From the NCBI GenBank assembly GCA_012295275.1, contig CM022671.1:28644001-28708000 (forward strand): a DNA stretch of 64,000 bases, in the 5' to 3' direction. The notes under the pieces were generated by a model. The model searched no databases. It saw only the letters and a program-made list of their open reading frames with translations, and was not told the origin of the DNA. Position 1 is the first letter of the stretch; each line of letters opens with the position of its first letter. This document shows positions 26,898 through 63,591 of the stretch, one piece after another. Both the position numbers and the translations under genes were made by a program. This stretch comes from Chrysomallon squamiferum. Lineage: Eukaryota; Animalia; Mollusca.

Positions 26898-26970
26898 GGT
26901 TTCGTGGTGTAGTGGTTATCACGTCTGCTTCACACGCAGAAGGTCGCGAGTTCGAGCCTCGCCGGAACCT
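26898..26970 (+). tRNA. tRNA-Val(CAC), uninterrupted (empty allele of the SMIM4 insertion site)
   Basis: Full cloverleaf; flanks match the reverse complement of 58804-59900 and 55585-56495. Confidence 0.92.
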
Positions 26971-30278: not shown

Positions 30279-30399
30279 TGATTTTTTTTTCTTCTAATTT
30301 TTCTATATATTTATTGACTTCCGGTTATGGTGGCGTCGAGTGTGGACGCGTTTCACATCGGCTCTCGCTTCGGAAAGGTTTTGTTGTAAACTAAGTATT

Positions 30400-31564
30400 A
30401 TGTCTTGGGCGGAAGAATCAGAAAATTACGAAGAAAAGATGAAAGATATGAATTTAAAAAAAGAAGGAATGAGAAAAAATGTTTTTAAAAAAGAATGCAC
30501 TGTGATTGTAAATGTAGAAGATAACAAGAAAATTTCAGCAGGCGACATGATAGATTTTGTAAGTGGCCAGGTGGGTGATGTGATAAAAGCGTGCGTACCG
30601 AAAGAATCCGACTCTTATGAAATAACACTAGAAGATATTATACAAGCGAGAATGATTACGGAAATTGATGAAACAGAATTGAAAGGTCTAAAAATAAAGG
30701 CGAGAATTTTGAAATCTGAAACTGTAGTAGTTTCCTTTTTGCACTTGCCTGCCTACATTGAAGATGAAGAAATTGAAGAAAAATTGAAACAAATGGAAAT
30801 AGAAATTTTATCACCAATTTATAGAAGGCTATACAAAGGGACAAAAATTGCAGATGGAACAAGATACGTGAGAGTGAAATTTCCACCCGGAATAAAAAGT
30901 TTACCATACTCAATGAAATTTAGGACTTATGAAGGAATAAAATATTTTCGTGTTTTTACATGACAATCAAATAAAAGTATGTTACAACTGCATGGCGGAT
31001 AATCATTTGTTGAAAGACTGTCCAAATATAAGGTGTCATAACTGTAAACAAAAAGGACATTTTGCTAGAAACTGCCCGAACATATTTCTGTGTGAAAAGT
31101 GTGGAAACAAAGAGGATGAATGTGAGTGTTGGTCAGAGTATGACAGCGATGAACAAAAAAACAGCGACAGTGACAGTGATGGTATGGAATATAATGTAAA
31201 ATCAAAGGAGAAAAAAAAAGAAATTGAAGCAGAAAGTATCCAGAGGATAAATACAACAGAAATGGAAATCAACAAGGAACAACAAAAATCAGAAAATGGA
31301 GAAAAACCAAGAAAATCCCCTGATAAAAACACCAAAGTGAAAATTACTAACAAGGAAGCTGGAACCATCGAAGCAGAAAATAGTAAGCAGAGTAAAACAA
31401 AGCGTCGAACGAGATTGATCAAGCGTCCATCAGAAGAAAAACTGTGGAGCTTGGTAGAAAATAGAAAACAAAAAAAGAGACAAGCAGCACACATGAAAAG
31501 TGTGAGAGAAAGTGTTGCCAGGGTAATGAATGAGTATGGGGGGGAGGATATAGACAAGATATAG
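30400..31564 (+). CDS. Tx1 ORF1 gag-like protein with CCHC zinc knuckles (one frameshift near 30955 in a T run)
   Basis: CYNCMADNHLLKDC and CHNCKQKGHFARNC; DGTRYVRVKFP..SLPYS motif. The copies at 52682-52969 and 61050-61832 read through the frameshift (YFRVLH). Confidence 0.88.
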
Positions 31565-31576
31565 AATATTTTAAAA

Positions 31577-34500
31577 ATGGGTAATAGTTCACTAATTTTT
31601 CTACTTCTAACTATGATCTTGTCTATAAATGTAAACGGACTGAGAGATATTGAGAAATTAAATTCAGTTTTTGCAACATTTAAAAGTAAACATGCAAATA
31701 TTATTTTTCTACAGGAAACATTTTGGGATAATGACTTCATTGAGAGATATAAACATTTATGGGAAGGAAATATATTTTATAATAATTGTCCAAATAAAAA
31801 AAAGGGTGTAGCAATACTGGTATCAAAAGAATGTCCTTATAAGTTTACATTTAATAGTTGCGACACTGAAGGCAGGATTTTAAAAATTAATACGAAAAAT
31901 AGATGAAGAAGAATACAGTTTTATAAATGTATATGCACCAAATAATATTGAAGAAAGAATTTTATTTTTTAAAGGATTATGTAAATTTGTGGATTTAAAA
32001 AATACAATAATGGCAGGAGATTTTAATGACATTTTAGATCCTAATTTAGATTTGGGCATTAATAATAAAACTTTCAATATAAAAAGTAGTAATGAATTAC
32101 AGTCAGTTATTTTTAATTATAATTTAGTTGATATTTGGCGACACAGAAATCCAGATAAAAGGCAATTTACTAGATCTCAAATAGTTGAAAAAAACTATAA
32201 AACAGTAAAGAATTGATTTATTCTTAATTTCTAGAAATTTATTGCAGTTTATAAGTAATGTATACATATCCTATACCTCGGTTAGTGATCACAATTTTTT
32301 ATCACTTAAAATAGATTTTTCTCATGTAGAGAGGTCAAGGTATTTGGATCTTTAATAATGAATTGTTGAAAGATGAAAGTTTTTGTAAAGCTATTATTGA
32401 AGTTATTAATAATGCTTCTGAGTGTCCTTTGTTACAGACTGAACCTAGTGTTTGGTGGGACAACTTAAAATATAAAATGAAAACGTGCAAGAAATTTTGC
32501 AATAAAAAGAAAAAAATCAGATAACGAAAAATATTATAATATACAAAATGCTTTGAAAAGAGAATATGCTAAACTAGCTGTAAATAATCATCATGATTTG
32601 AGTAACATACAAATTTTAGAAGAAAAATTAAAATTAATTGAGAGATCTAAATGTAATGGTGCTATTTTGAGATCTAAAGCTCATTGGAATCTAGATATGG
32701 ATAGAAATACCACATTTTTTCTCAGTTTAGAAAAATCAAAACAAGAATCAAATTCTATTAAAGAGCTAAAAACAGTAAATGGATTAACAAGAAAAACAGA
32801 AGATATATTACAATATGCTTATGACTTTTATTCAAAATTATTTACACAAGAAAATGTAGATATTATTAAACAGGAAGAAATAATAAATTTAATATCAAAT
32901 AAACTAAAAGAATCTGAAAGTGAAAACTGTGAGAAAGACATTACAATTGAAGAATTAACTGAAGCTTTAAAAGAAATGAATAGAAATAAATCACCTGGTC
33001 TGGATGGTCTAACAGTAGAATTTTATGTTAAATTCTGGGAAAATTTTAAAAATTTCTTTCATAAAGTAGTTATGTCAATTCAGAAAAAGAAGAAATGTTG
33101 TCACGCAGTATGAAAAAAGGAGTAATTAGTTTATTTTACAAGAAAAAAGGAGATAAAGCAGACCTAAAAAATTTCAGACCTATCAGCCTTTTAAATGTAG
33201 ATTATAAAATTATTGCTAAAGTTCTTGCAAATCGTCTTAAACAAGTAATGTCAACTATTATTTCATCAGAACAAACCTGTTGTGTAAAAGGAAGAGATAT
33301 TGCTGACAATATTATGTCAGTAAGAGATATTATAGATATTGTCGAGTTAAATAATACAGAAGGGTATATAGTTAAAATAGATCAAGAGAAAGCATTTGAT
33401 AGAGTATCACATAGTTTTATTTTAAAAGTTTTGAAAAAAAATTCAATTTTGGTGATAATTTTATAAAGTGGATTAAAATACTATATAATAATATTAAAAG
33501 TTGTGTAAAAATTAATGGACATTTAACACCTTTTTTTAATATTACAAGAGGGGTTAGACAAGGATGTCCAATATCAATGATGCTTTATGTTATTGTAGCT
33601 GAACCCTTAAATAATTTAATTAAAAAAAGACATAGCATGAATGGAATTAAGATAACAAATGAACTTAATTCTTTATTATTTCAGCATGCAGATGATACTA
33701 CAGTAACTGTCTGTGATGCTCAGTCAGTAGAAAATGTTTTTAATACAATAAATATGTATTGTAGTGCTACAGGGGCAAAAGTCAATGTAGATAAGTCAGA
33801 AGTACTTTATCTTGGTAAAACCATGATTGAAAACTTATCCTTTAACATTCCAATATCAATAAATAAAAACTATGTTAAAATTCTAGGTATATATTTAGGA
33901 CCAAATAAACTATTATGTGAAACTTTGAACTGGAAAAATAAATTAGCTAAAATGTCTAATCTAATTAACTTATGGAGTCAAAGGAAACTTACTTTGCACG
34001 GAAAAGCTGAAGTATGGAATACTTTATTAACATCTAGACTGTGGTATATCATTAGCACAATAAATGTACCAAATTGGGTAGAAAATGAAATTCATAAATT
34101 ATTTTGTAAATTTATGTGGGAAGGGAAAACATCTTTAATAAAATATTCAACAATAATTGGAAATAAAATGTCGGGTGGACTAAATATTCAAGATATTTCA
34201 TTAAAGAAAATGGCTTTTCGAATAAAAATGTTAAAGAAATATTTTGATAATAATTTTAAAAATGTGTGGAAATATACAATGTCAATATTTCTTGAAAAAT
34301 ATATGAATATGAATCTAAATTATGACATTTTTAAAATAGTATACAGTAAAGAAGCTTTAAAAGTTATTAATCCTTTTTATGCTGAAATATTATCAGCTTG
34401 GGACTATGTTAATAATGGAGAACGTAATTTCCCACTTGATACAGATGAAATATTGTCTCAGCCACTTTTTCAAAATCCATTCATTAAATATAAAAACAAA

Positions 34501-35463
34501 TTATTATTATTTAGTTCTTTTATAAAAAGTGGAATAGTCAAAGTGGCTGATATTGCTTATGAAGTAATACCAGGTTTTCTTCCTTTTACAGCTATTGTAG
34601 AAATTATTCATGAAAAATCTCCAGAATTATCCAAAACCAAATTTATATAGCTTACAATGTTATTAAGAAATCACTTCCAGATGAATGGAAAAGTGCTATT
34701 AACAGAAATGCTAAAAAAATTAACTTCTAATAAAGATTTATTTTTTGTTTCAGAATAATGAAATGATAAATGTCAATAAATTTACAGCTAAAATAATTTA
34801 TTCTATTTTAATTTTAAAAAACTTTAAAGCACCAACTTGTGAAGAAAAATGGAATGAGCTTGGTTTTAATATATTCTGGAGACCAGTTTGGAAATGGATA
34901 CACTATAGTGATAAATTTACTGAATTTATAGACTTAGATTTTAGAATAGTTCATCATATAATATATACATATAACAAATTATATAAATATGGCAAAAAAT
35001 CTCATCTAGTGTATGTCCAGTGTGTTTGAAGGCTGATGAAGATTTGTGCCATTTATTTTTGTATTGTGAAGAATTGAAGGAATTAATATCAATCTTTCAT
35101 GAAATATGTATTTATATATTTAAGAAAACAGGGTTTTCTCTAGAACAATTAAAAAGATTATTAATATTTGGATGTTATCTCAAAATTGAAAATAGTACAA
35201 TAGAATTTATTAATATTATTCTTTCAATTTATAGAATAACAGTGTTCAAAAGGCGTGTAATAGCTCAAATGAAAGGAACAAATATCAATATAATACATTT
35301 TTTTAGAAATTATATGTATCAGTGCTTTAAAATCATTCTAAATCAATATCGTATTCAAAACAAACTTTCAATTTTTATTAACAAATATGTTAAGAACAAT
35401 ATTTTCCTAGAACTAAAAGATGACATACTTATTTTCAAATATCCTTTGGAAAGCTACAAATAA
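31577..35463 (+). CDS. Tx1 ORF2: APE endonuclease, reverse transcriptase and C-terminal Cys/His motif (several frameshifts)
   Basis: SINVNG, FLQET, NVYAP, AGDFN, RIDL, SDH; KSPGLDG, RPISLLNVDYK, DQEKAFDRV, RQGCP, HADD; CPVC...EDLCHLFLYC. Confidence 0.92.
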
Positions 35464-35688
35464 TCAATACAGATAAATCATGGAAATGGATAAAAGAATT
35501 AATACTATAAAATACTGTAAATATATATGAATATTCCGAATAAATAAGTATGCATGCATGTGAGTGTGAATGAGTGTGACTGAGTGTGTGAGAGGAAACA
35601 GTTTTTATTATTGTTATTTACAGCTGTAATGTTATTTTAATTGTGTACAACTGGTGATTATACTAATAAAGATAAAAAAAAAAAAAAA

Positions 35689-41212: not shown

Positions 41213-41608
41213 TTTGTTATTATCTTCATCTTCCTTTTTTTTTTTTTTTTTTTTTTTTGCTCTCTTTGCCCTCCTAAGAGTTGAGTCGTTCGGCTGCATC
41301 CTTTGTACTGCATTCGGTTAAGACGACCTTAGACTTGAATCATTATAATACAAATATTTTCCTTTTTTTAAATCTTTTTTGTTTTGTTTTACGAGCTAGC
41401 ACACACAGTCTTCTAAGATGAACTATGGATGTAATTACCTGAACAAACACAGTAATAATAATGATAATGAACTTTGACGTGATTCAAACTAAACTTTGAT
41501 TATCTTTCAGCTTGCTTTTTCCGGGCCAGAACATTCGACTCGGTTCAGAATTCACTTCTGTTCGTGTCGCGCCTTTCGTAACCTGAGATAGTGAAACAGA
41601 CAAGCGTA

Positions 41609-42749: not shown

Positions 42750-42834
<85 letters not shown>

Positions 42835-43164
42835 TATTCTTTGTTGTATATTTAGGTATCTTTTAATATCCATCTATCCATCCATCCATCCATTTATCTC
42901 TCTTTTAGTGTTGTCTCACTGTCTGTCCATCTGTTTGCGCGTGAGTATGTGCGTGTGTGTGTGTGTGTTTGTGTGTATGCATGAGTATCATAATCCGATG
43001 TTGTTAATATGTTGACTGAAATTCAGTTGTTTCCAGGTGTTTCTGGCTGACGTCAATTCAGAAAAAGGCGAAGAGACAGTAAAAGCTTTCACAGAGAAAT
43101 ATGGCGCAGAGAAAGCCAAATTTGACGTCACAAATAAAGAACAATTTACAGGTAATTCAAAGTT

Positions 43165-43224
<60 letters not shown>

Positions 43225-45021: not shown

Positions 45022-45057
<36 letters not shown>

Positions 45058-46075
45058 TTCAGGTCTAATCCCTTCGTTTTGGACTCCTATTTACGCCTGT
45101 ACAAAACACGCAGTTGTTGGATTTACTCAGAGCTGGGCGGTCGGTTTAATTACGTTTCTGAGAATCTGTACAGAAAATACACACAAACAGACACATGTAC
45201 ACATACGAGCGCGCACACGTAGGCCTACACACACACAAAAACACATGTACATATGTGTATATCTCGTCGTAGTCATATTCACGTTATTAAATATCTGCTT
45301 CAGACTACAGCACGTAATAAAAACTTTTGATTTCAGAAAAACCCCGCAATATCCAGCATGGGTGTGAGACTAGCGTGTCTGTGTCCTTCCGCGGTGGACA
45401 CGAATCTGATGGACGTCAAAGCAGACGACTGCCTCGGTTTAGACAGCTTCGTAGCGAACATAGACTTCATGGGACTCTTGTCGTAAGAACACAAAGTCGA
45501 CAGATACAAACACTGTTTTACCGTTCTCAGTTAGAAAATTGTTGTTAACAGGACTTTGTACCAGTTCACTAAATCACACACTGTGCTCGTATGTATAATT
45601 CTGTGGTTGACTCGGTTCTTCTGTGCATGTATGTGTGCGTGTGTGCGTTTGTATGTATGTCGTCCGTATATGTAAAGGTGAATGCACGCAGGTCCGAGCG
45701 CACGATACATATGAGACACACAAACACGTTTGTAATATTAGTACAGCTGCAGTTACAGTCTGTAGTTTTAATAAATATAACCCAAGACTTTGACTGTGAT
45801 GGAAAGATTTTAGGGTGTGGGAATTTGTATCTAAAAACTTTACTCACGAAAATTAGATATTTTTCTTTTAAAACTGCATTTTAAAACTGCTTCTTCTTTT
45901 TTTCACATTCAGGGTGTCTAACGTGGCTGAAGCTTTCTTAAAACTGGTTCAAGATGAAGGGAACAACGGAAAACTGATGGCGGTTACTCTGAAGTCCGGC
46001 TCATTCTACACCGAACGACAGCTTGAACCACCACTCGGTCTACCCACAGCAATGCCAACTAAACCTAGCGAGTAG
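41609..46075 (+). CDS. HPGD: HPGD-like SDR copy 4; exons 41609-41701, 43037-43151, 43607-43713, 44083-44179, 45063-45139, 45337-45482, 45913-46075
   Basis: TGGAHGIG, NNAG and YACTKH motifs with an open frame; exon 2 has an in-frame 9-nt deletion (GKC lost before DVT). Confidence 0.85.
44315..44997 (+). mobile_element. Tigger/pogo-like remnant in HPGD copy 4 intron 4
   Basis: MDPKKVSAKDSAEQKKK.. HTH remnant; terminus ctcgtaagtcaaggcaccactg followed by TA. Confidence 0.75.
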
Positions 46076-46145
46076 AAAAAGTCTTAAAAGACTGTGTTAC
46101 AAAACAACTTTCGTAATAATATATTCAAACTTTAATATTAAATGA

Positions 46146-46192
<47 letters not shown>

Positions 46193-46243
46193 GAGAGGGA
46201 AGACTTCACAAACAACTTCGTAATAGTATATTAAAACTTTAAT

Positions 46244-46334
<91 letters not shown>

Positions 46335-47684
46335 TTATTTGATATAAGTGATTACAAAAATACACGGTTTAAACATTAAGAATCATTTTTGTCAAAAAAC
46401 GACCTTTCTCCAGTAATTTAGAAAACATTTTCATTAAACGGTATTAAAATTTTCCATTTCATTAAACTTTCATACATTTTAACTCTAACTAAGAAAAAAA
46501 CAAAACAAAAAACCCCCAAAGATATAACTGAAAAAAAATAGGTTAATTTTATTTGCAAATTTTACACAGTATAATCTAGCTGTTTAATTTATGCACGAAA
46601 TCATCTATTAAGCGGATCTGTCTGACACCATGTTGCAGGTCAAAGGTCGATACGCTATTTATAACTGTTTAAATAATTGAAAACTTTCGATCAAGCACAC
46701 GTGCACACTCACACACAAATACGTCGGTATTTAAACATCTTTTCATACATTGAATGAAATCAGCATGTCACTGATTAATAATTTATCTATTCAAATGAAA
46801 ATAAATTTAAAAAAATAAAAAATTATAACGCATACAATAATTTGAACCCACAAACCATAAAACGAATATAATTAATAACTGTGAATCATTTTTAAAACGA
46901 AACATGTAATAAAATATTAAAAGTAGCTTCCTTTTTAACTTTAAGTCATTGATAATATACTGTAAATATTGAACAGGAGGATATAGATACGTTAAATATT
47001 AGTAACAGAACGCTGAATAAAATGTATGGAGTTTTTCGGTTAGTTTAAAACTGAATATTTTAAGACAAACTTCAAATCCTATAACAAATTTGTTATATGT
47101 GTTTCTGTTAAAAAGTATAAAAGGATTGAAATGTGTTGAGATAAACATGTAAATGAAGCAGTGTAAACGACATATTTAAATTGCATTGTTTGCACGTGCT
47201 TCATACTCGCGTTCCTGCATTTCAGTCTGATTCTTAATAAGAGTTTGTTTTCGTTTGATTATTTGTTGGTGTATGTTATTCTTATTATTCTTCTTCTTAT
47301 TATTATTAGAAACAAATTTTATGTATGTTAGTTGCTATATGTTTTTTTGTTTTTTGTCTTCTTTATTACTTTTTTTTTCTTCTTTTTTTTTTTCTTTGTT
47401 TTTATGAAGTATACATTATATAATTCATTTGCACCTCAACCACGTATACACATATTCAAATGCTAAAAACACGGTTCTACGTACACTAGATTATTATTAT
47501 TATTATTTTATTTTAAGGCACACTATATGGAAAAGACAAAGATTAATCTGAATTAGATAAAAGTAGGTATGTCAGTTTGATTTCTCTAAAAGATGTCCCA
47601 CGACAAGCATATTTATATCTGGAAGCATGTGGGAAAAAAACAAAACAAAAAAAACCCCCAATAATCCACACTTAACAAGCACGG

Positions 47685-47800
47685 TCTACTGTCTTTTTGA
47701 TCCTGACGGCTGTTTCTTCTGGAATCTTGCTCTTTCCTTACCGATTCACTTGGTGTTGCTAATGTTACTTGCGTTCGTGAATTCCCCAATTCCCCGAATT
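47685..47800 (-). pseudogene. 3' end of a Shisa-like paralog B homologue, truncated by satellite
   Basis: Reverse complement resembles 9197-9314, and 46330-47685 mirrors ~9315-10530. Confidence 0.7.
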
Positions 47801-47802
47801 GC

Positions 47803-49549
47803 CATACACGTCGCGAACATTTTGCACACGTTCAAAATATTTTTCCCGACCACACGGAATAGTGCCACACGGATTTTCAATTTTTGAAAATCGAATTTTT
47901 TCAAGTTTCGTTGAAAATGCTAGGGGTACCTTTTTCAAAGTGCAATATCTTTCCCTCTGGACGTAGCAAAAATCGGCCGCACATACCCAAAAGTGGGGCA
48001 AGCGATGCCCGACACGGGTGAAAAGTGCCGCACGCTCCACCCAAGGGGAACAACTCGTTTCCGACACGTGCACAAAAAACGCACATATTTTAGTAAATTT
48101 GCTCTTTTTTTTTTTTTTTTCAACGCATTTTCAAAAGGTGCAGCACCTTTTGTAAATCTTGGAAATGTTTTTGCCACACTCGCCCCGACGGCGTGCACCT
48201 TTTGCACACGTTCAAAATATTCTTCCCGACCACACGGAATAGTTCCACACGGATTTTCAATTTTTGAAAATCGAATTTTTTCAAGTTTCGTTGAAAATGC
48301 TAGGGGTACCTTTTTCAAAGTGCAATAACGTTTTCTGCGCACGTGGGAAAAATCCGGCGCACATACCCAAAAGTGAGGCAAGGGTTCACGACACGCGTGA
48401 AAAGTGCCAAACACCCCACCCAAGGGGAACAACTCGCTTCCGACACGTGCACAAAAAACGCACATATTTTCGAAAATTAAATCTAATCTATGTTTATGAA
48501 CACATCTCATTAAAGGGACATAAGGCTAATCAGTTTAATTTTTACTTTCCTCAGTGAGTACATCTCACGTAAGGGACCTAACTCTAATCTGTTTGTAAGC
48601 ACAGTACACAGGATAAAATAAAAAAATATATAACTAAACAAATAAAGAACCACGTTGAATCATTAAAACGATCGAAGTTCGGCGTCTTTGCAGGTTGCAT
48701 TTTCGGATAATTAGCGTACGTAAGCTTAGTGACTACATCTCAGGTAAGGCACGTAACTCGAATCTATGTTTATGAACACATCTCATTAAAGGGAGATAAG
48801 TCTAATCAGTTTAATTTTTACTTTGCTTAGTGAGTACATCTCACGTAAGGGACCTAACTCTAATCTGTTTGTGAGCACATGTGACAACAAGGAAATAAGT
48901 CTAATGGATATGATTTTTTCTTTGCTTATTATAAATATACAGAGACAGACAGACAGACATACACATACTTACACAGAGTAAAACCTCTGGTAATGAATGG
49001 ATATACAATTCTAAAAGAAACAAAATTGAATTAATTAAAAATTGTCAGAAACTTTAAAAAGGAATGATCATCAAAATATTAAAGAAATACAAAAAGAACT
49101 AATAAATTCTGATACTAAAAAACCGATTCTATCAAATGACACAATAAAATATTTTATTTACTGATTTTTTTATTATAACAAAAATAAGCAAAGTACACAG
49201 GATAAAATAAAAGAATAACGAAACAAATAAAGAACCACGTTGAGTCGTTAGAACGATCGAAGCTCGGCGTCTTTGGCGATTACATTTATCGGATAATTAG
49301 CTTGCGTAAGCTCAGTGACTACGTCTCAGGTAAGGGACATAACTCTAATCTATGTTTGTGAACACATCTTACTAAAGGGAGATCAATCTAATCGATATAA
49401 TTTTTATTTTGCTTAGTGAGTACATCTCACGTAAGGGACCTAACTTTAACCTGTTTGTGAACACATACAATTCATAAAAGAAATAAAATTCAATTAATTA
49501 AAAATTACCAGAGAATTTTAAAAGAAATAAACTTCAGAATATTAACAAA
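47803..49549. repeat. ~380-bp satellite (47803-48478) followed by a second repeat family (tctatgtttatgaacacatctcattaaaggga at ~48487, ~48763, ~49349)
   Basis: Internal direct repeats visible; located at the contig end. Confidence 0.75.
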
Positions 49550-49749: not shown

Positions 49750-49769
49750 TTACGTATTTATGTAAATTT

Positions 49770-52700
49770 ACCATGAATTATGAATTTCATTTTCTACAAT
49801 TTGGTACATTTATTGTTAACTAATGATATACCACAGTCTAGATGTTAATAAAGTATTCCATACTTCAGCTTTTCCGTGCAAAAGTAAGTTTCCTTTGACT
49901 CATAAAGTTAATTAGATTGAACATTTTAGCTAATTTATTTTTTCCAGTTCAAAGTTTCACATAATAGTTTATTTGGTCCTAAATATATGCCTAGAATTTT
50001 AACATAGTTTTTTATTTATTGATATTGGAATGTTAAAAGGATAAGTTTTTCAATCATGGTTTACCAAGATAAAGTACTTCTGACTTATCTACATTGACTT
50101 TTGCCCTGTGGCACTACAATACATATTTATTGTATTAAAACATTTTTCTACTGACTGAGCATCACAGACAGTTACTGTAGTATCATCTGCATGCTGAAAT
50201 AATAAAAATTAAGTTCATTTTGTTATCTTAATTCCATTCATGCTATGTCTTTTTAATTAAATTATTTAAAGGGTTCAGCTACAATAACATAAAAGCATCA
50301 TTGATATTGGACATCCTTGTCTAACCCCTCTTGTAATATTAAAAAAAAGGTGTTAAATGTCCATTAATTTTTACACAACTTTTATTATTATATATAGTAT
50401 TTTAATCCACTTTATAAAATTATCACCAAAATTGAATTTTTTCAAAACTTTTAAAATAAAACTATGTGATACTCTATCAAATGCTTTCTCTTGATCTATT
50501 TTAACTATATACCCTTCTGTATTATTTAACTCGACAATATCTATAATATCTCTTACTGACATAATATTGTCAGCAATATCTCTTCCTTTTTACACAACAG
50601 GTTTGTTCTGATGAAATAATAGTTGACATTACTTGTTTAAGACGATTTGCAAGAACTTTAGCTTAATGAATTTTATAATCTACATTTAAAGGCTGATAGG
50701 TCTGAAATTTTTAGGTCTGCTTTATCTCCTTTTTTCTTGTAAAATAAACTAATTACTCCTTTTTCATGCTGCGTGACAACATTTCTTCTTTCTGAATTGA
50801 CATAACTACTTTATGAAGAAAAGAAATTTTTAAAATTTTCCCAGAATTTAACATAAAATTCTACTGTTAGACCATCCAGACCAGGTGATTTATTTCTATT
50901 CATTTTCTTTAAAGCTTCAGTTAATTCTTCAATTGTAATGTCTTTCTCACAGTTTTCACTTTCAGATTCTTTTAGTTTATTTGATATTAAATTTATTATT
51001 TCTTCCTGTTTGATAATATCTACATTTTCTTATGTAAATAATTTTGAATAAAAGTCATAAGCATATTGTAATATATCTTCTGTTTTTTCTTGTTAATCCA
51101 TTTACTGTTTTAGCTCTTTAATAGAATTTGATTCTTGTTTTGATTTTTCTAAACTGAGAAAAAATGTGGTATTTCTATCCATATCTAGATTCCAATGAGC
51201 TTTAGATCTCAAAATAGCACCATTACATTTAGATCTCTCAATTAATTTTAATTTTTCTTCTAAAATTTGTATGTTACTCAAATCATGATGATTATTTACA
51301 GCTAGTTTAGCATATTCTCTTTTCAAAGCATTTTGTATATTATAATATTTTTCGTTATCTGATTTTCTCTTTTTTATTGCAAAATTTCTTGCACATGTTT
51401 TCATTTTATATTTTAAGTTGTCCCACCAAACACTAGGTTCAGTCTGTAACAAAGGACACTCAGAAGCATTATTAATAACTTCAATAATAGCTTTACAAAA
51501 ACTTTCATCTTTCAACAATTCATTATTAAAGATCCAAATACCTTGACCTCTCTCTACATGAGAAAAATCTATTTTAAGTGATAAAAAATTGTGATCACTA
51601 ACCGAGGTATAGGATATGTATACATTACTTATAAACTGCAATAAATTTCTAGAAATTAAGAATAAATCAATTCTTGACTGTTTTATAGTTTTTTCAACTA
51701 TTTGAGATCTAGTAAATTGCCTTTTATCTGGATTTCTGTGTCGCCAAATATCAACTAAATTATAATTAAAAATAACTGACTGTAATTCATTACTACTTTT
51801 CATATTGAAAGTTTTATTATTAATGCCTAAATCTAAATTAGGATCTAAAATTTCATTAAAATCTCCTGCCATTATTGTATTTTTTAAATCCACAAATTTA
51901 CATAATCCTTTAAAAAATAAAATTCTTTCTTCAATATTATTTGGCGCATATACATTTATAAAACTGTATTCTTCTTCATCTATTTTCGTATTAATTTTTA
52001 AAATCCTGCCTTCAATTGTGCAACTATTAAATGTAAACTTATAAGGACATTCTTTTGATACCAGTATTGCTACACCCCTATCTTTTTTTATTTGGACAAT
52101 TATTATAAAATATATTTCCTTCCCATAAATGTTTATATCTCTCAATGAAGTCATTATCCCAAAATGTTTCCTGTAGAAAAATAATATTTGCATGTTTACT
52201 TTTAAATGTTTGCAAAAACTGAATTTAATTTCTCAATATCTCTCAGTCCGTTTTACATTTATAGACAAGATCATAGTTAGAAGTAGAAAAATTAGTGAAC
52301 TATTACCCATTTTTAAAATATTCTATATCTTGTCTATATCCTCCCCATACTCATTCATTACCCTGGCAACACTTTTCTCTCACACTTTTCATGTGTGCTG
52401 CTTGTCTCTTTTTTGTTTTCTATTTTCTACCAAGCTCCACAGTTTTCTTCTGATGGACGCTTGATCAATCTCGTTCGACGCTTTGTTTTACTCTGCTTAC
52501 TATTTTCTGCTTCGATGGTTCCAGCTTCCTTGTTAGTAATTTTCACTTTGGTGTTTTTATCAGGGGATTTTCTTGGTTTTTCTCCATTTTCTGATTTTTG
52601 TTGTTCCTTGTTGATTTCCATTTCTGTTGTATTTATCCTCTGGATACTTTCTGCTTCAATTTCTTTTTTTCTCCTTTGATTTTACATTATATTCCATACC

Positions 52701-53253
52701 ATCACTGTCACTGTCGCTGTTTTTTTTTGTTCATCGCTGTCATACTCTGACCAACAATCGCATTCATCCTCTTTGTTTCCACACTTTTCACACAGAAATA
52801 TGTTCGGGCAGTTTCTAGCAAAATGTCCTTTTTGTTTACAGTTATGACACCTTATATTTGGACAGTCTTTCAACAAATGATTATCCGCCATGCAGTTGTA
52901 ACATACTTTTATTTGATTGTCATGTAAAACACGAAAATATTTTATTCCTTCATAAGTCCTAAATTTCATTGAGTATGGTAAACTTTTATTTCGGGTGGAA
53001 ATTTCACTCTCGTATCTTGTTCCATCTGCAATTTTGTCCCTTTGTATAGCCTTCTATAAATTGGTGATAAAATTTCTATTTCCATTTGTTTCAATTTTTC
53101 TTCAATTTCTTCATCTTCAATGTAGGCGAGCAAGTGCAAAAAAGGAAACTACTACAGTTTCAGATTTCAAAATTCTCGCCTTTATTTTTTAGACCTTTCA
53201 ATTCTGTTTCATCAATTTCCGTAATCATTCTCGCTTGTATAATATCTTCTAGT
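49770..53253 (-). mobile_element. Tx1-like copy (part of ORF1 to mid ORF2), 5' end fused to tRNA-Val(CAC) nt 65; 3' end lost in the gap
   Basis: Reverse complement of ~30627-34110 with many indels; junction cctcgc|actagaag. Confidence 0.92.
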
Positions 53254-53318
53254 GCGAGGCTCGAACTCGCGACCTTCTGCGTGTGAAGCAGACGTGATAA
53301 CCACTACACCACGAAACC
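53254..53318 (-). pseudogene. tRNA-Val(CAC) lacking the 3' acceptor strand
   Basis: nt 1-65 are present, then Tx1 ORF1 sequence. Confidence 0.88.
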
Positions 53319-53639
53319 GCTTTAAAATAACCATCTAATGTTTCAGTGAAAGCCTTAAATACCTTTAGCTTAACCAGGCAGCCGTCTAGGACGCACACGT
53401 AAGAGGGGTGCATTACTGGCCTTTAAGGGTCACAGAATATCAAAGGAAACGTATACCGATAATAGTTCATTATCTTTAATAGTTTAAAAAGAGTTAATTG
53501 TTACTTGAAAACCAGTTTATTATTCTCAAAACTAACAGTATTGTTAAACTGAAATCAAGATTTTAATTTTGACAACTGCTCTTAAAACAGGAAAGAGTAC
53601 AATACGTTAGTGCTACAAACAAAATATTAACAAAACTAA

Positions 53640-53824
53640 AGGTTCCGGCAAGGCTCGAACTCGCGACATTCTGCGTGTAAAGCAGACGTGATTTTTTTTT
53701 ATCTTTATTGATATAATCAACAGTTGTACACAATTAAAATAAGATTAAAACAGTAAATAACAAGAATAAAAAATAGGCATCCTCTCACACAGTCATGTAA
53801 AGCAGACGTGAGAACCACTACACC
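53640..53824 (-). pseudogene. tRNA-Val(TAC) with a short Tx1 insertion (53692-53795); counterpart of 29688-29885
   Basis: Perfect 16-bp TSD tgtaaagcagacgtga at 53676-53691 and 53796-53811. Confidence 0.88.
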
Positions 53825-53877
53825 TACATATAAATATGTGTAAAATGTAGATCTATGACGACAACATTGTTTTTTTC

Positions 53878-53956
<79 letters not shown>

Positions 53957-54307
53957 AAATATTAGACTGGAAACATTGCTGTATTTTATACAAACCTAGA
54001 TGTTATATCTCTCTTCATTCGTACGAACAAGACTCGATGTTGACTACAGAATCAAATATCTTCATTTAAAAACACTATTAGTTTATAATATCCAATGGCA
54101 ATGTAGTAAGCTATCATTAATTTACCAATTTTATGATTTTAATTATATGATATATCACATAATAACATGCAAATGAAATAATTAAATAAAGTTTCAATTT
54201 ATTTCATAAAATTCACTTTTCAATGACGTGTCAAATCAATAAATATTAGTTTATAAACCATTAAAAAATATTCTGTGTCATGCAGTTATTGTACGTTTTT
54301 ATTTATC

Positions 54308-54380
54308 GGTTTCGTGGTGTAGTGGTTATCACGTCTGCTTAACACACAGAAGGTCGCGAGTTCGAGCCTCGCCGAAACCT
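54308..54380 (+). tRNA. tRNA-Val(AAC) with one anticodon-stem mismatch (ACAGA)
   Basis: Full cloverleaf; counterpart of 28962-29034. Confidence 0.82.
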
Positions 54381-56564
54381 TCATTCATTCTTTCTTGTTG
54401 TTTTTTATTATTATTATTATTTCTTTTTTGAGTGAGAGAGAGACAAATAGAAAATCAGAAAAAAACACCACCCACTCACATCAAGATGGATTTATCCATA
54501 ATACAGAAACTTTTATTTCAATATGATTAAAATTCGATAAAACGATATTGGTTTTGTTTTTTGGGGGATTTTTTGTTTCTTTGTTGTTTTATGCTATATA
54601 CAATTAGTTATCGCAAAAATAAAATTAAAGAAATCTAGTAATTTATTTATTTATTTACTTAATCATTTATTTCAAGCTGATGTGCTTATCTTTCATAACA
54701 GAAGGAAAGAAAAAAGAAATACCTACCTGACAAAAATAATGTCAACGTAGTGAAATATATACATTATCTGCTTTTATTAAATAAATTAATAATAATTGAA
54801 AGCCTAATAAAATTTATATACCTTATTGATAAAATTTATACAACTTCTAGATAACATTTATATACCTACCTTATAGATAAAATTTCTGTACCTTCTAAAT
54901 AAAAGTTTTATACTTATACATATAATTTATATAGATTCTAGATAAAAGTTATATACCTTCTAGGTAAAATTTCTATACTTACCTTATTGATAAAATTTAT
55001 ACAACTTCTAGATAACATTTATATATTTACCTTATAGATAAAATTTATATACCTTCTAAATAAAAGTTATATACCTTACAGATAAAATTTCTGTACCTTC
55101 TAAATAAAAGTTTTATACTTATACATATAATTTATATAGATTCTAGATAAAAGTTATATACCTTCTAGGTAAAATTTCTATACTTACCTTATTGATAAAA
55201 TTTATACAACTTCTAGATAACATTTATATACTTACCTTATAGATAAAATTTATATACCTTCTAAATAAAAGTTATATACCTTACACATAAAATTTCTATA
55301 CCTTCTAAATAAAAGTTTTATACTTATACATATACTTTATATAGATTCCAGATAAATGATATATACCTTCTAGGTAAAATTTCTATACAGTATTTGTATG
55401 TGAGTGTGCACGTGTGCTTGAAAGTTTTCAATTATTTAGACAGAGTTATAAATAGCTTATCGACCTTTGACCTGCAACATGGTGTCAGCCAGATCCGCTT
55501 GTCAGATGATGAACTCGCGACCTTCTGCGTGTAAAGCTGATTATGACCACTACACCGCGAAACCTACCACTACACCACGAAACCTACATATAAACATGTG
55601 TAAAATGTAGATCTATGAAGAAAAATAAATCAAGCAGTTTAATGATGAATTTTTTATTGTTTTTATTTTTTTTAAATTTGATTTAAAAAAAAAAAAAAAA
55701 TGGTTTGGTCTAATCTCTCTCTCTCTGTATGACTGTTTATTCGTGTTCATCTGTTTCACTGGTTTAGTGGTGATCACGTTTGCTTCAAACATTTGTAATT
55801 TAATAATTAAATATCCTTAATTAATTTTCTTAATTATAATGTATGATTTTATGAATAAAGATTTTATTTAAAAAAAAAAAAAAAAAAATGCATATTCTGC
55901 GATTTCCGGCCTCGCGGAAACGTTCAATTATTCGTTTCTTTATCAGATTAAATTGTCTCAAAAACGGATCCCTGTAAAACATTCTACAAAATAGATTCGT
56001 ATGATAACATAAATAAATCTACTAAACTGTATTCTTTCTACTTTGAAAATAACCGCTCAAAGGTCTTCATGACATATTTTGTTACAGTGTTTTTGTTCTA
56101 ATGAGAAATCTTGTTACAGCTATGACTAAAACAACCTATGTGATTTGTGACCAGTAAGCTTATGCTTGTTTAGAATCATGAAATCTACTGACAAGTTTAG
56201 TTCTACACAGAATTATCCAACGTCTTCGTGGATTTTATCTTCTAATGAGACGTTTGTTTACAGTCTTCTCCATTTCACGCCCTTGTACGTGCTTACGACT
56301 GTGAAATTTGCTCAGGCACATTTAACTTTGATTTCACGACTCTGTGGTAATTTCAACACAATTTTTGTGTGTAATCATAAACAAAACACAAAGAAAGAAC
56401 GTTAATGTAAGATCAGTGATTTATTATTTTTAAAGTTGAAACATAAATAAATAAATATTTCATTTATTCATTCATCCAATTATTATTTGTTAATACAAAA
56501 AAAAAAAAAAATCAAGGTTCCGGCGAGGCTCGAACTCGCGACCTTCTGCGTGTGAAATCAGACG

Positions 56565-58765
56565 GTTTTTTTTTTTTTTTTCAGATTTAAGTAACATTAT
56601 TTTGAAAATATTATTTTATTGTTTATCATTGAATTGCACACTAACAGAAAATTTAGATGTGGAGACACTCACATATACTCATATCATCTTAAATATTGCA
56701 ATCCCTTTAATACCTAGAATATTGTATCCAGCATAAATATATATTTTCATTTGCAATTGCTTTGTTTGTTTGATGTGTTTTTTTCTGTTATGAATATTAC
56801 AAATATGAGTCTTTGAATTAAAAGAACTTCAGATAGAAAAAAAAATCCTAATTTTTTTTTAGCGATTTCTGCAAATTTTGTTGAGTGAACATTTTATATA
56901 AATTATAATAATCCTAACATACAATTTAAACTGAGCCGATTAACAACAATATTTTAATGTTAAATATATTGCAAAGAATATCGAGTACAAAGTAAATTTA
57001 TTAATAAATGTGACAGGCAGGTGTCCTTGTCATCAGTTTACTCTTGTTTTTTGTTTTTTCAAAAACTGTTTTTAACAATTTGTGTCAAAGAACAGAATAT
57101 TTCATGCCATCACTATTTTTATTAATACATTTCAGTCTCAACACACTGACCATTCATGATTACAAATTAGAGCCCTGTTTTTAGTACTGAGAACATACCA
57201 GTTTAATCATTAAGAAAACTAAATTTAGTAAATAAAAATCTGGTTAGTTGTTAGTAAAAGTCTTGGCAACGCAGTTTGTTGTCTACTATCATTCTTTTTG
57301 AAATATATAACATTTAAGATCTACCTGTTTCTGATAGCAGCCATTTTTTAAAAAGAAATAAAAACACTGTTATAGGTGATATGTTAATATCCATGCCTCA
57401 TCACCTCAATTTGTATCACTGATGGCAGCCCTATCTGATAAACAGTAGTTAGAAATTAAGTTTCACACATTACTTTTAGTGCAATGTAATAATTGTTCCT
57501 GGATAACATTAGGTAGAAAAACTACTGGACATTTAACAAAACCTAACACTTATTATTAATTGCTCTTTCTTTCTACTTAAACTTAGGGTATTTTAATATA
57601 TATATACATTTCACACAAAAAAATTAAAAATTTAATGTTTTCTGTATTAAAAGGTTACCTCTTGATTAACCATGTATTTTAACACCATTAAATAACAAGT
57701 TATTTTACCTAGAGTACTGTAACACAACAGACTTAATCCAATTTGACATTATTTTACTAATAAACATACAAGATTTTTGAGAACTTGAATATTTTAATCT
57801 TTTACATTATTTTTATTATTTTTATTAAACCAACTGGGGATTTGTTCTAGTTATATACAAGTTAAGACAATCACACTTCCATGTATTATAGTTACTGCTT
57901 TCATTTTTTTTTTTTTTTACAACAGACATATACTTCAGCCTCCAACAATTCTACTACACAACAATGTTAACATTTTTTTTTTTTCGATTTCACATCGACT
58001 TATCTTTTACTATATTCCTTTTGTTTGTTTTTTTCTTTTTTTCATTTTTATTTTTTCTTTTTTTTTCTTGTTAAAAAACACACTGGAATATACACATGCA
58101 CACATTTTACATTTCTTCTTTTGTTTTTTCCTTTGAACCGAGAAGAGATTTCTCTTTTTCAATCCATTTATCCATATCCTCTAAGGGTTTGTAGTAAATA
58201 TGAACCACTTGTGCTCCTGCACCCATAGTCAACAATGCAGCTGCCAAAAATCTGAAATAACCTGGAGGCAAGCGTCCTACCACCATTTTTGATACAGAAC
58301 ACTAATTATATCCAAACACTATGTGAAATCCACCGAAATGTCTATGTTAGTATGTATTGTTTATTATAACACGTTATCACTAAAAGGTCTCAGCAGAAAA
58401 AGAATGTACATCAAAATGTTGATTTTATGATATCACAGTTTATTTTTAGATGTTGCTGAAGTTTCCAGACTCTGCATAGCAATTTTATGTGCTTGTTTTT
58501 CCTTGTATACTGAATAAAAGTTAATCTGTCCTACTCTCCAATTTACCATTGAAAACTCAACTGCAGCTCCCAAAACAAAAAAAATCGGAAGAAATCTATA
58601 CATTCCAAACGTTTTTTTCCCAGGCCATGCCTGCATAATGCGTTGAATTGTTCTACTAAAAAAGAATCTACTAATCATGATTTTATTTTAGGACATGTGC
58701 TCACTTTCTTGTCTCATTTCACCTTTCAGTTGCTGACATTTTGTAACTTGCCCATGCGCAGAGTC
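56565..58765 (-). other. Processed mRNA retrocopy (5'UTR, SMIM4/UQCC5-like ORF, ~1.85-kb 3'UTR, poly(A))
   Basis: T16 at 56566-56581; AATAAA on the minus strand at 56615-56620; TSD at 56551-56564 and 58766-58779; absent from the homologous locus at 26898. Confidence 0.88.
58433..58678 (-). CDS. SMIM4: SMIM4/UQCC5-like small mitochondrial membrane protein, intronless intact ORF, 81 aa
   Basis: RIMQAWPGKKTFGMYRFLPIFFVLGAAVEFSMVNWRVGQINFYSVYK matches the remembered family pattern PGK..FG.YRFLP.FFVLG...E..M...RVG...FY.VY. Confidence 0.85.
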   Translation of the reverse strand: MISRFFFSRTIQRIMQAWPGKKTFGMYRFLPIFFVLGAAVEFSMVNWRVGQINFYSVYKEKQAHKIAMQSLETSATSKNKL

Positions 58766-59319
58766 TGTGAAATCAGACGTGATAACCACTACACCACGAA
58801 ACCGCTTTGAATAACCCTCTAATGTTTCATTGAGAGCTTTGTATACGTTTAGCTTAACCAGACAGCCGTCTAGGACGCACACGTGCATTACTGACCTTTA
58901 AAAGAAACGTACATCGGAAATAGTTCATTGTTCTTAATAGTTTAAAAAGAGTTAATTGTTAATTCAAAACAAGTTTATTATTTTCAACACTAACAGTAGC
59001 CACAAATTAATTGAAGAAATAGAACAAGAAAGAAATACAAGATTTTGGCGAGGCTCGAAAACGCGACCATAACACTTTTAACAGTATCATGAATACGGTA
59101 CAACAACTCATTTTAAAATAGTTTATGAACTAATATTTAGTAACTTGACATGCTTTAAAAAGTGATTTTTATGAAATAAGATATTATGAAACAATATTTA
59201 ATTTACATGTTATTGAATGATGTCATTTAATTCGTTAGGAATTTAAATAATAAAATTAATAAATGAATTGACGAAACCTTACTTTATTGACATTGGATAC
59301 TATAAATTAATACGTTATC

Positions 59320-59392
59320 GGTTTCGTGGTGTAGTGGTTATCACGTCTGCTTAACACGCAGAAGGTCGCGAGTTCGAGCCTCGCCGAAACCT
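59320..59392 (+). tRNA. tRNA-Val(AAC)
   Basis: Full cloverleaf with T-run terminator. Confidence 0.92.
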
Positions 59393-59898
59393 TGATTTTT
59401 TTTTCTTTCTTGTTCTTTTTCTATTATTTTTCGATTAAACGATATTGGTTTTGTTTTTCGGGGGATATATTTTTTCTTTGTTGTTTTGTGCTATATACAA
59501 TTAGTTATCGCAAAAATAAAATTAAAGAAATCTAGTAATTTATTTATTTATTTCAAACTTATATGCTTATCTTTCATAACAGAAGTAAAGAAAAAAAAAA
59601 CCTACCTAGAAAAAGATTGGCAGCCGTCTAGGACGCACACTTAAGAGGGGTGCATTACCGACCTTCAAGGGTCTCAGTACTGTACAACCACAAACATATT
59701 AAAAGAAACGTATACCGGTAATAGTTCGTTGTCCTTAATAGTTTAAAAAGAGTTAATTGTTATTTGAAAACCAGTTTATTATTTTCAAAACTATCAGTAT
59801 TGTTAAACTGAAATCAAGACTTTTATTTTGACAACTGCTCTTAAAACTGGAAAGAGTACAATACGTTAGTGCTACAAACAAAATATTAACAAAACTAA

Positions 59899-59971
59899 AG
59901 GTTCCGGCGAGGCTCGAACTCGCGACCTTCTGCGTGTAAAGCAGACGTGATAACCACTACACCACGAAACC
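59899..59971 (-). tRNA. tRNA-Val(TAC)
   Basis: Full cloverleaf on the minus strand. Confidence 0.92.
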
Positions 59972-60032
59972 TACATATAAACGTGTGTAAAATGTAGATC
60001 TATGACGACAACATTTTTTTTAATCAATCAAT

Positions 60033-61972: not shown

Positions 61973-63591
61973 TTTTTTTTTTTTTTATCTTTATTAGTAT
62001 AATCACCAGTTGTACACAATTAAAATAACATTACAGCTGTAAATAACAATAACAAAAACTATTTCCTCTCACACACTCAGTCACACTCATTCACACTCAC
62101 ATGCATGCATACTTATTTATTTGGAATATTCATATATATTTACAATATTTTATAGTATTAATTCTTTTATCCATTTCCATGATTTATCTATATTGATTAT
62201 TTGTAGCTTTCCAAAGGATATTTGAAAATAAGTATGTCATCTTTTAGTTCTAGGAAAATATTGTTCTTAACATATTTGTTAATAAAAATTGAAAGTTTGT
62301 TTTGAATACGATATTGATTTAGAATGATTTTAAAGCACTGATACATATAATTTCTAAAAAAATGTATTATATTGATATTTGTTCCTTTCATTTGAGCTAT
62401 TACACGCCTTTTGAACACTGTTATTCTATAAATTGAAAGAATAATATTAATAAATTCTATTGTACTATTTTCAATTTTGAGGTAACATCCAAATATTAAT
62501 AATCTTTTTAATTGTTCTAGAGAAAACCCTGTTTTCTTAAATATATAAATACATATTTCATGAAAGATTGATATTAATTCCTTCAATTCTTCACAATACA
62601 AAAATAAATGGCACAAATCTTCATCATCCTTCAAACACACTGGACATACACTAGATGAGATTTTGCCATATTTATATAATTTGTTATATGTATATATTAT
62701 ATGATGAACTATTCTAAAATCTAAGTCTATAAATTCAGTAAATTTATCACTATAGTGTATCCATTTCCAAACTGGTCTCCAGAATATATTAAAACCAAGC
62801 TCATTCCATTTTTCTTCACAAGTTGGTGCTTTAAAGTTTTTAAAATTAAAATAGAATAAATTATTTTAACTGTAAATTTACTGACATTTATCATTTCATT
62901 ATTCTGAAACAAAAATAAATCTTTATTAGAAGTTAATTTTTTAGCATTTCTGTTAATAGAACTTTTCCATTCATCTGGAAGTGATTTCTTAATAACATTG
63001 TAAGCTATATAAATTTGGTTTTTGGATAATTCTGGAGATTTTTCATGAATAATTTCTACAATAGCTGTAAAAGGAAGAAAACCTGGTATTACTTCATAAG
63101 CAATATCAGCCACTTTGACTATTCCACTTTTTATAAAAGAACTAAATAATAATAATTTGTTTTTATATTTGATGAATGGATTTTGAAAAAGTGGCTGAGA
63201 CAATATTTCATCTGTATCAAGTGGGAAATTACGTTCTCCATTATTAACATAGTCCCAAGCTGATAACATTTCAGCATAAAAGGGATTGATAACTTTTAAA
63301 GCTTCTTTACTGTATACTATTTTAAAAATGTCATAATTTAGATTCATATTCATATATTTTTCAAGAAATATTGACATTGTATATTTCCACACATTTTTAA
63401 AATTATTATCAAAATATTTCTTTAACATTTTTATTCGAAAAGCCATTTTCTTTAATGAAATATCTTGAATATTTAGTCCACCCGACATTTTATTTCCAAT
63501 TATTGTTGAATATTTTATTAAAGATGTTTTCCCTTCCCACATAAATTTACAAAATAATTTATGAATTTCATTTTCTACCCAATTTGGTACA
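61973..63591 (-). mobile_element. 5'-truncated Tx1-like copy (1.6 kb) with target-site deletion
   Basis: Reverse complement of ~34065-35688 with T14 at 61973-61986; its 5' end joins the tRNA upstream flank (gaaacattagatggttag) and tRNA nt 1-21 are missing. Confidence 0.92.

What the first reader, a model, noticed from the sequence alone, without database searches (positions are those of the whole stretch)
56515..58803. Cellular SMIM4/UQCC5-like mRNA retrotransposed into a tRNA-Val gene, 3 nt from the Tx1 target site
Seen: a 2201-bp insert with an 87-nt leader, intact intronless 81-aa ORF, long 3'UTR, AATAAA and A16 tail, flanked by a 14-bp TSD (CGTCTGATTTCACA on the minus strand). It has the same orientation relative to the tRNA as the Tx1 copies; the tail joins at tRNA nt 25 versus nt 22 for Tx1. 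The empty homologous gene is at 26898-26970. The target has a private change (TGATTTCAC versus TGCTTCAC) in both TSD copies, so it predates the insertion and may explain the shifted nick. Known: L1-clade ORF2 mobilises poly(A) mRNAs in trans. Inference: a site-specific Tx1 wrote an unrelated, apparently full-length mRNA into its target, a natural case of targeted retrogene formation with no element 3'UTR.
Basis: partly seen in the sequence, partly recalled or inferred. Interest (0 to 1): 0.9.

Follow-up and report, generated by a model that had tools for sequence, protein, structure and literature searches.

The report
Host mRNA pasted into tRNA gene
A complete, spliced copy of a host messenger RNA coding for two small mitochondrial proteins sits inside a valine tRNA gene, within four bases of where a neighbouring site-choosing jumping gene lands, and was likely pasted there by that element's enzyme, which would make it a natural case of targeted gene insertion.

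Summary
Confirmed, and richer than reported. Public runs show the parent gene: same exons, 920 extra letters inside ORF1, and a non-tRNA upstream flank. The insert starts with one G that the parent lacks (cap-like) and ends in A16+C inside a 14-bp duplication. Its 5' junction matches that of a short copy of the local L1-clade (Tx1-like) element; its tail sits 3-4 nt from the element's site. One run's contig length fits the 3' junction exactly; the 5' junction is not shown by any displayed contig. The copy is very young, probably heterozygous and probably silent. That the local element's ORF2p made it is inferred (about 0.75). Trans-mobilisation by Tx1 is already proposed for SINEU; I found no paper with a whole host mRNA at such a site. 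This scan noted a similar case before on other DNA (a shark 3'-UTR fragment, unchecked).

The parts
58766..58803 (-). 5' part of the interrupted tRNA-Val(CAC) gene, nt 1-38 of a variant target with a C-to-AT change in the anticodon arm; 58779-58766 is the left copy of the 14-bp duplication
58765..58765 (-). Single G absent from parent and target; likely the reverse-transcribed cap
   Evidence: parent contigs of X1, X3 and X5 match up to 58764 only; the X3 loose end differs at the next base; PMC4859970 passages
58679..58764 (-). 5' leader, with four upstream ATGs giving 2-9 aa peptides
   Evidence: 0 differences to parent contigs of X1 and X3
58433..58678 (-). ORF1, 81 aa, SMIM4/UQCC5/sloth1 family; exon junction at 58516|58515 (codon 55, phase 1)
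   Evidence: Pfam PF15114 E 3.4e-32; 920 letters between these two bases in X5 contig 20; P0003 has a 17-aa insertion at the same residue
58287..58432 (-). 146-nt spacer between the two ORFs, with one short ATG-started frame of 15 aa
58107..58286 (-).
   Evidence: Pfam PF14990 DUF4516 E 4.4e-12, 45.9 bits against a cut-off of 27; the link DUF4516 = C12orf73 is recalled
56582..58106 (-). 3'UTR of 1525 nt; last AATAAA starts at 56620
   Evidence: covered by RNA contig 22 of X8 from 56628 upward
56565..56581 (-). A16 tail plus one extra C
   Evidence: length of X1 contig 2 fits
56515..56564 (-). Right copy of the 14-bp duplication (56564-56551) and 3' remainder of the tRNA gene
26898..26970 (+). 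Empty counterpart, intact tRNA-Val(CAC); likely the other allele
30316..35687 (+). Full-length L1-clade (Tx1-like) element, copy A: ORF1 with zinc knuckles, ORF2 with endonuclease, RT and zf-RVT, read in nine pieces; tail joins tRNA nt 21/22; 90-bp duplication 30226-30315 = 35688-35777
53693..53795 (-). Short 5'-truncated copy of the element's tail in a tRNA-Val(TAC) gene; duplication runs from nt 21/22 to nt 37, the same 5' junction as the mRNA insert; its counterpart is at 29714-29832 (+)
61974..63591 (-). 5'-truncated element, copy C; tail joins tRNA nt 21/22; followed by the 5' end of copy D (61832 to about 61076)
49763..53254 (-). Element copy B, counterpart of copy A in the second block, cut by the assembly gap

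Best explanation
The insert is a complete, spliced, poly(A)-tailed copy of the host's two-ORF SMIM4/UQCC5 + C12orf73/BRAWNIN mRNA inside a tRNA-Val gene, and it was likely written there by the ORF2 protein of the neighbouring tRNA-Val-targeting L1-clade (Tx1-like) element acting in trans. Shown: parent gene, missing 920-letter intron, tail, 14-bp duplication, one extra 5' G, no element sequence in the insert, same orientation and nearly the same site as the element's copies. Inferred steps: ORF2p took up the mRNA by its poly(A) tail; the endonuclease nicked the bottom strand at or near nt 20/21 of a tRNA gene that already carried a damaged anticodon arm; priming lost or skipped 4 nt and added one base; reverse transcription ran to the cap and copied it as G; the top strand was cut after nt 37 (38 in the variant). 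The event is very recent, probably on one chromosome only, and the copy is probably silent because it left its promoter behind.
For: Parent with 920 letters at 58515|58516 and 894 unlike letters beyond 58764 (X5 contig 20). RNA contig 26 of X8 crosses that point without a gap. Parent match stops at 58764 in X1, X3 and X5, leaving one G; untemplated G marks full-length capped templates for L1 and SVA (PMC4859970; PMC2912911). 14-bp duplication fits the 14-16 bp peak of full-length L1. X1 contig 2 has 64 letters beyond the last laid base, ending at 56527 if colinear, which is exactly the last window-unique 31-mer of the tail-tRNA junction; the same logic predicts the start of X3 contig 14 at 58779. 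Three independent element tails at nt 21/22, and a short copy whose 5' junction is also after nt 37. Rough chance of a random insertion landing within 4 nt of that site in the right orientation: 3e-7 to 4e-6 under assumed gene and genome numbers. Closest relative of the element's ORF2 matches human L1 ORF2p at E 5e-88. Tx1-Mar is proposed to mobilise SINEU in trans, and no element sharing the 3' end of SINEU-1 was found (PMC4494074).
Against: The tail joins at nt 25 with an extra C and no A-T pairing at the primer end, unlike all element tails here. The element's own 5' junctions vary widely (duplications of 16-17, 90 and possibly about 139 nt), so the match at nt 37 rests on one event. No intact element is in the window: copy A reads in nine pieces, though A and B differ by 54 gaps against 28 substitutions, which looks like long-read consensus noise. 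Exon-1 contigs of X1 and X3 run into the parent's upstream DNA without a break at 58764, and no displayed contig bridges the 5' junction (171 pieces were not shown). It is a single event; no genome was available to look for others.
Confidence: 0.75

Rival explanations
1. Same retrocopy, but made by another tRNA-Val-targeting retroelement (a sister subfamily or an unrelated clade) whose normal nick is at nt 24/25.
For: The 3-4 nt offset. At least two subfamilies of the element exist here: the short copy differs from copy A at about 15% of its tail. An earlier, unchecked note of this scan reports a different clade in a tRNA-Val array of another genome (e1-9369821).
Against: Both subfamilies seen here join at nt 21/22. 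No element with a nt 24/25 junction is in the window. The target is the one gene with a changed anticodon arm, which could itself perturb the junction.
Confidence: 0.12
2. The element's endonuclease, or other damage, broke the tRNA gene, and a different reverse transcriptase (an untargeted L1 or a repair polymerase) patched the break with the mRNA.
For: Primer end has no A-T pairing and one added base; the target carries a private change 7-8 nt from the junction that could be an older repair scar.
Against: A clean 14-bp duplication, full length, tail and cap-like G are the usual marks of endonuclease-coupled priming.
Confidence: 0.08
3. Assembly artefact or DNA-level copy of the gene.
For: Noisy consensus and gaps nearby; the 5' junction is not shown by a displayed contig.
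Against: The insert lacks the parent's 920 letters and its upstream flank, which no DNA copy explains. X1 and X3 contigs break exactly at the exon junction, as expected if spliced and unspliced forms both stand in those runs (their DNA status is the tool's guess). X1 contig length fits the 3' junction to the base.
Confidence: 0.03
4. An ordinary untargeted L1 put the retrocopy here by chance.
For: L1 routinely makes such copies.
Against: Rough chance 3e-7 to 4e-6 per event; the site is not T-rich like the TT/AAAA preference described in PMC2912911.
Confidence: 0.02

Closest known systems
L1-made processed pseudogenes (mRNA retrocopies) of mammals (PMC4859970, PMC2912911; passages read)
   Same: No intron, poly(A) tail, 14-bp duplication, extra 5' G, no element sequence.
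   Different: Lands at the fixed site of a sequence-specific element in a tRNA gene instead of a loose TT/AAAA site; the tail ends in an extra C.
SINEU mobilised by Tx1-Mar in crocodilians (PMC4494074; introduction and parts 3-4 of 5 read)
   Same: Non-element RNA found at the target of a target-preferring Tx1 group; trans-mobilisation inferred from the shared site; no partner with a shared 3' end found for SINEU-1.
   Different: SINEU are repeated non-coding retroposons derived from snRNA and the target is a Mariner; here it is one whole protein-coding host mRNA and the target is a tRNA gene.
Target-specific Tx1-clade elements: Tx1L, Keno (U2), Kibi, Koshi, Mutsu (5S), Dewa (tRNA-Leu spacer) (PMC4494074, PMC3706591; passages read)
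   Same: APE endonuclease + RT ORF2 of the L1 clade, zinc-knuckle ORF1, poly(A) tail, fixed site in a multicopy RNA gene.
   Different: Site is inside tRNA-Val at nt 20/21; no such family was named in what I read. Clade placement was not tested against Tx1 references.
Drosophila sloth1-sloth2 bicistronic gene (PMC9681215; section 5 and passages read)
   Same: SMIM4-type ORF followed by C12orf73-type ORF on one transcript; ORF2 start context CAAAAATG resembles the fly's CAAAATG.
   Different: Spacer is 146 nt, not 5; the leader has four upstream ATGs; an intron splits ORF1.
TRE5-A of Dictyostelium (PMC5633606; passages read)
   Same: tRNA-gene-directed non-LTR element that mobilises a non-autonomous RNA in trans.
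   Different: Inserts about 50 nt upstream through Pol III factors; the cargo is its own deleted variant.

Membership tests
Processed retrocopy | Parent gene elsewhere, with an intron that the copy lacks | tested here: met
   920 letters at 58515|58516 in X5 contig 20; the intron's end letters were not displayed, so GT-AG is unchecked; P0003 has an insertion at the same residue
Processed retrocopy | Similarity to the parent stops at the transcript ends | tested here: met
   5' end: stops at 58764 in three runs. 3' end: only indirect, X3 contig 9 ends at 56580
Processed retrocopy | Poly(A) tail and target-site duplication | tested here: met
   A16 and 14 bp
Processed retrocopy | Junctions supported by raw genomic reads | tested here: inconclusive
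   3' junction inferred from a contig length; 5' junction not displayed
Retrogene (expressed, functional copy) | Intact reading frames | tested here: met
   both ORFs open; one synonymous difference at 58278
Retrogene (expressed, functional copy) | Transcription from the new locus | tested here: inconclusive
   the one RNA run laid carries other alleles (19 differences in contig 22) and may lack the insertion; first T-run that would stop Pol III is at +103
L1 clade (neighbouring element) | ORF2 with APE endonuclease, RT and C-terminal zinc motif, closest to L1 ORF2p | tested here: met
Tx1 clade (neighbouring element) | RT groups with Tx1L/Keno/Dewa in a tree | not testable with these tools
   no named Tx1 reference among 53 homologues or the clusters read
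Tx1 clade (neighbouring element) | Zinc-knuckle ORF1 and fixed target site | tested here: met
   zf-CCHC E 3.4e-9; four tails, three events, at one site; that these traits mark Tx1 is partly recalled
Cargo mobilised in trans by this element | Same site and orientation as the element | tested here: inconclusive
   orientation and 5' junction match; tail is 3-4 nt off
Cargo mobilised in trans by this element | ORF2p uses a foreign poly(A) RNA | not testable with these tools
   needs an assay
sloth1-sloth2 bicistronic gene | Both ORFs, in this order, on one transcript | tested here: met
   Pfam hits; the copy runs from cap-like G to tail as one piece; overlapping RNA contigs of X8 chain from 58074 to 58694 (contigs alone do not prove one molecule)
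sloth1-sloth2 bicistronic gene | Both peptides translated | not testable with these tools
   needs proteomics or ribosome profiling

The most novel reading that the evidence does not exclude
This tRNA-Val-specific L1/Tx1-type ORF2p needs nothing but a poly(A) tail, copies 2-kb host mRNAs to the cap, and places them at a fixed site of a multicopy gene. tRNA-Val clusters in this lineage would then collect whole host cDNAs, and the enzyme would be a natural site-specific cDNA writer that needs no element 3'UTR.
Probability: 0.3. Interest if true: 0.85.

Novelty: new variant of a known kind. Interest (0 to 1): 0.63.

Why it matters
L1 proteins take any poly(A) RNA but insert loosely; most site-specific elements are thought to need their own 3' end. 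A whole, spliced host mRNA at the site of a sequence-specific L1-clade element suggests that both traits can sit in one enzyme. That makes the question of whether Tx1-type ORF2p is 'relaxed' directly testable with a named target and cargo, and is of interest for targeted gene insertion. As a by-product, the copy is a natural full-length cDNA showing that the sloth1-sloth2 two-gene mRNA exists in one more animal lineage, here with a long spacer and upstream ATGs.

Tried and rejected
No whole genome is held, so no genome-wide scan for other tails was possible. The poly(A)-tRNA-Val pattern found 0 matches in metagenome contigs. Five distant relatives of the element's ORF2 (24-44% identity) had no tRNA gene on their contigs, 0 of 5: uninformative. 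Homologue search for ORF2 of the insert found no candidate; ORF1 gave 3 hits, the only named one from a beetle at 54%; the element's closest named relative is from the limpet Patella caerulea at 47%. The host group is therefore not established. The protein atlas gave no answer. Blastn of the insert against element copy A gave only short A/T-rich matches, best E 8e-4 over 46 nt in mid-insert: no shared tail. Contig depths were used only as a weak hint for zygosity, since the tool warns that they are no copy number. Rejected: DNA-level duplication (intron and flank differ); Pol III-driven expression (B box is 2.2 kb away, T-run at +103); 3'-transduction by the element (no element sequence in the insert). 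Literature searches for a precedent: searches gave 0 papers, one search gave 1 unrelated listing, one search gave 3 (two read in part; PMC5753468 seen as listing only). Kojima and Fujiwara 2004 and Repbase entries were not available; figure 3 and the supplements of PMC4494074, which list Tx1 targets, were not seen and may name a tRNA-Val family.
Full report
What is in the sequence. On the minus strand a tRNA-Val(CAC) gene is split into 58803-58766 and 56564-56515, with a 14-bp repeat at both breaks and 2201 bp between. Only 2 of 3000 random intervals of that length in the window had a flanking exact repeat of 14 or more. The insert reads: one G, 86 nt of leader with four upstream ATGs, an 81-aa ORF, a 146-nt spacer, a 59-aa ORF, 1525 nt of 3'UTR, A16 and one C. 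Pfam assigns the first ORF to UPF0640 (E 3.4e-32) and the second to DUF4516 (E 4.4e-12), both above the curated cut-off. From memory these are the SMIM4/UQCC5 and C12orf73/BRAWNIN families. PMC9681215 (section 5 and passages) describes their fly orthologues sloth1 and sloth2 on one transcript, in this order, with a like layout in choanoflagellate, sea squirt and lamprey.

The parent. Twelve runs were listed for the stretch and four were laid. Contig 20 of run X5 (3355 nt) matches the insert up to 58515, has 920 other letters, matches 58516-58764, and then goes on for 894 letters unlike the window. Contigs of X1 and X3 also leave the window at 58764, with 0 differences in exon 1. So a parent gene exists, has an intron-sized insert in codon 55 of ORF1, and is not flanked by a tRNA gene. 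The intron's end letters were not displayed. A homologue from another animal, P0003, has 17 extra residues at the same place, which I read as a retained intron at a conserved position (inference). RNA contig 26 of run X8 crosses 58515|58516 without a gap, so the insert is spliced as the mRNA is. The base at 58765 (G) is in neither parent nor target: the X3 loose end begins with another letter. [quoted passage not shown] The copy therefore most likely runs from transcription start to tail.

Age and zygosity. The five X1 contigs that follow the window's allele differ from it at 3 places in about 2080 laid letters; two of these (56698, 58278) differ in all four runs and are either private to the copy or consensus errors. 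The block 25722-34114 is an inverted near-copy of 49763-59977 at 97-99%, and both end at assembly gaps, as overlapping haplotype contigs would. In X1 the shared flank has depth 10.8, the parent's exon 1 plus upstream contig 11, and the gene body 15-21; in X5 the parent contig runs through the exon junction unbroken at 51.5, with two allele contigs of 27.4 and 30. This fits one extra copy in X1 and none in X5, but the tool warns that such depths are no copy number, and the X3 depths do not fit as neatly. I put 'filled and empty are alleles' at about 0.7.

Junction support. The region of the tail was skipped as a repeat, so no junction letters were displayed. However, X1 contig 2 has 64 letters beyond the last laid base; if colinear it ends at 56527, which is exactly where the last window-unique 31-mer of the tail-tRNA junction ends (counts go from 1 to 5 there). 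The same logic gives 58779 for the start of X3 contig 14, as observed. X1 and X3 contigs also break exactly at 58515|58516, and X3 contig 9 ends two bases into the tail, as expected where spliced and unspliced, or tailed and genomic, forms branch; that these runs are DNA is the tool's guess. Against this, the exon-1 contigs of X1 and X3 do not break at 58764. A short low-depth path next to high-copy tRNA sequence could have been pruned, but that is my inference. The 5' junction remains unshown; 171 pieces and 88 loose ends were not displayed.

The neighbouring element. Copy A (30316-35687) has an ORF1 with zinc knuckles and an ORF2 with endonuclease, RT and zf-RVT segments. It aligns in nine pieces at 58-76% to an intact 1281-aa relative, P0005, whose best solved relative is human L1 ORF2p (E 5.4e-88, against 2.4e-15 for R2). 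A and its counterpart B differ by 28 substitutions and 54 gaps, so many frameshifts may be consensus noise. Tx1 membership could not be tested with references. Four element tails join tRNA-Val at nt 21/22, in the same orientation as the mRNA insert; two are one event seen in both blocks, leaving three. A short copy at 53795-53693 has its 5' junction after nt 37, the position homologous to the insert's 5' junction. Full-length copies differ: A carries a 90-bp duplication and D starts about 139 nt past the nick, so the second cut is variable and the match at nt 37 is one supporting case, not a rule. The insert shares no tail with the element.

Mechanism. Target-primed reverse transcription in trans is the best reading (0.75 for this element's ORF2p; about 0.95 for a true retrocopy by any enzyme). 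The anticodon-arm change is in both repeat copies and so predates the insertion; it lengthens the gene to 74 nt and breaks the last stem pair, so the target was probably already defective. The 3-4 nt offset can be a shifted nick or a normal nick with primer trimming plus one added base; the sequence cannot tell these apart. A random hit within 4 nt of the site has a rough chance of 3e-7 to 4e-6, assuming 50-300 tRNA-Val genes and 380-740 Mb (both numbers are assumptions). Expression is unlikely: the parent's promoter is left behind, the B box is 2.2 kb away, and a T-run lies at +103. The one RNA run laid carries other alleles, and may lack the insertion.

What is known. L1-made retrocopies are textbook. 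Target-preferring Tx1-Mar elements are proposed to mobilise SINEU in trans, with no partner 3' end found for SINEU-1 (PMC4494074, introduction and parts 3-4 of 5). PMC3747384 (passages) notes that L1-clade elements rarely share tails with SINEs. TRE5-A mobilises its own deleted variant (PMC5633606, passages). Dewa targets a tRNA-Leu spacer (PMC3706591, passages). Six searches for a host mRNA at the site of a sequence-specific element found no such paper, but the library lacks most subscription papers and Repbase, and I did not see the target list in figure 3 or the supplements of PMC4494074. An earlier, unchecked note of this scan reports a 478-nt host 3'-UTR at a Tx1 site in a shark; it agrees with the reading but is not evidence.

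Verdict. Real, well supported as a young full-length retrocopy, and a new variant of a known kind. The site-specific author is inferred from position alone and from one event. Interest 0.63.

Noticed in passing
window 30226-30315 and 35688-35777; 61973-61833: Full-length copies of the element have very long duplications (90 bp for copy A; copy D starts about 139 nt past the nick), so a whole tRNA gene is restored upstream and can be hit again, giving tandem elements (C then D). Short copies and the mRNA insert, with 14-17 bp, destroy the gene.
   Followed up: partly
window 58679-58765: The parent's leader holds four upstream ATGs (2-9 aa peptides), and the spacer one more (15 aa); the fly's leaky-scanning model with a 5-nt spacer may not carry over to a 146-nt spacer.
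   Followed up: no
window 25722-34114 versus 49763-59977: Inverted near-copy at 97-99%, both ends at N gaps: probably two haplotypes scaffolded side by side.
   Followed up: partly
window 56499 versus 26987-27041: The filled locus lacks 55 bp of 3' flank just behind the tRNA terminator that the empty locus has.
   Followed up: no
window 57407-57650: One parent allele in run X1 lacks 242 bp of the 3'UTR.
   Followed up: no
window 27952-28025 and 55584-55511: tRNA-Val(TAC) pseudogene with a duplicated first 20 nt, cut off by another repeat after nt 56.
   Followed up: no
window 63591: 5' end of copy C joins the upstream flank of a tRNA-Val gene directly; the first 20 nt of the tRNA are missing (target deletion or recombination).
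   Followed up: no
window 9195-25500 (+) and 39318-48600 (-): Several 85-92% similar copies of a spliced short-chain dehydrogenase-like gene (weak Pfam adh_short_C2 hit; exons seen), with minisatellites in the introns.
   Followed up: no
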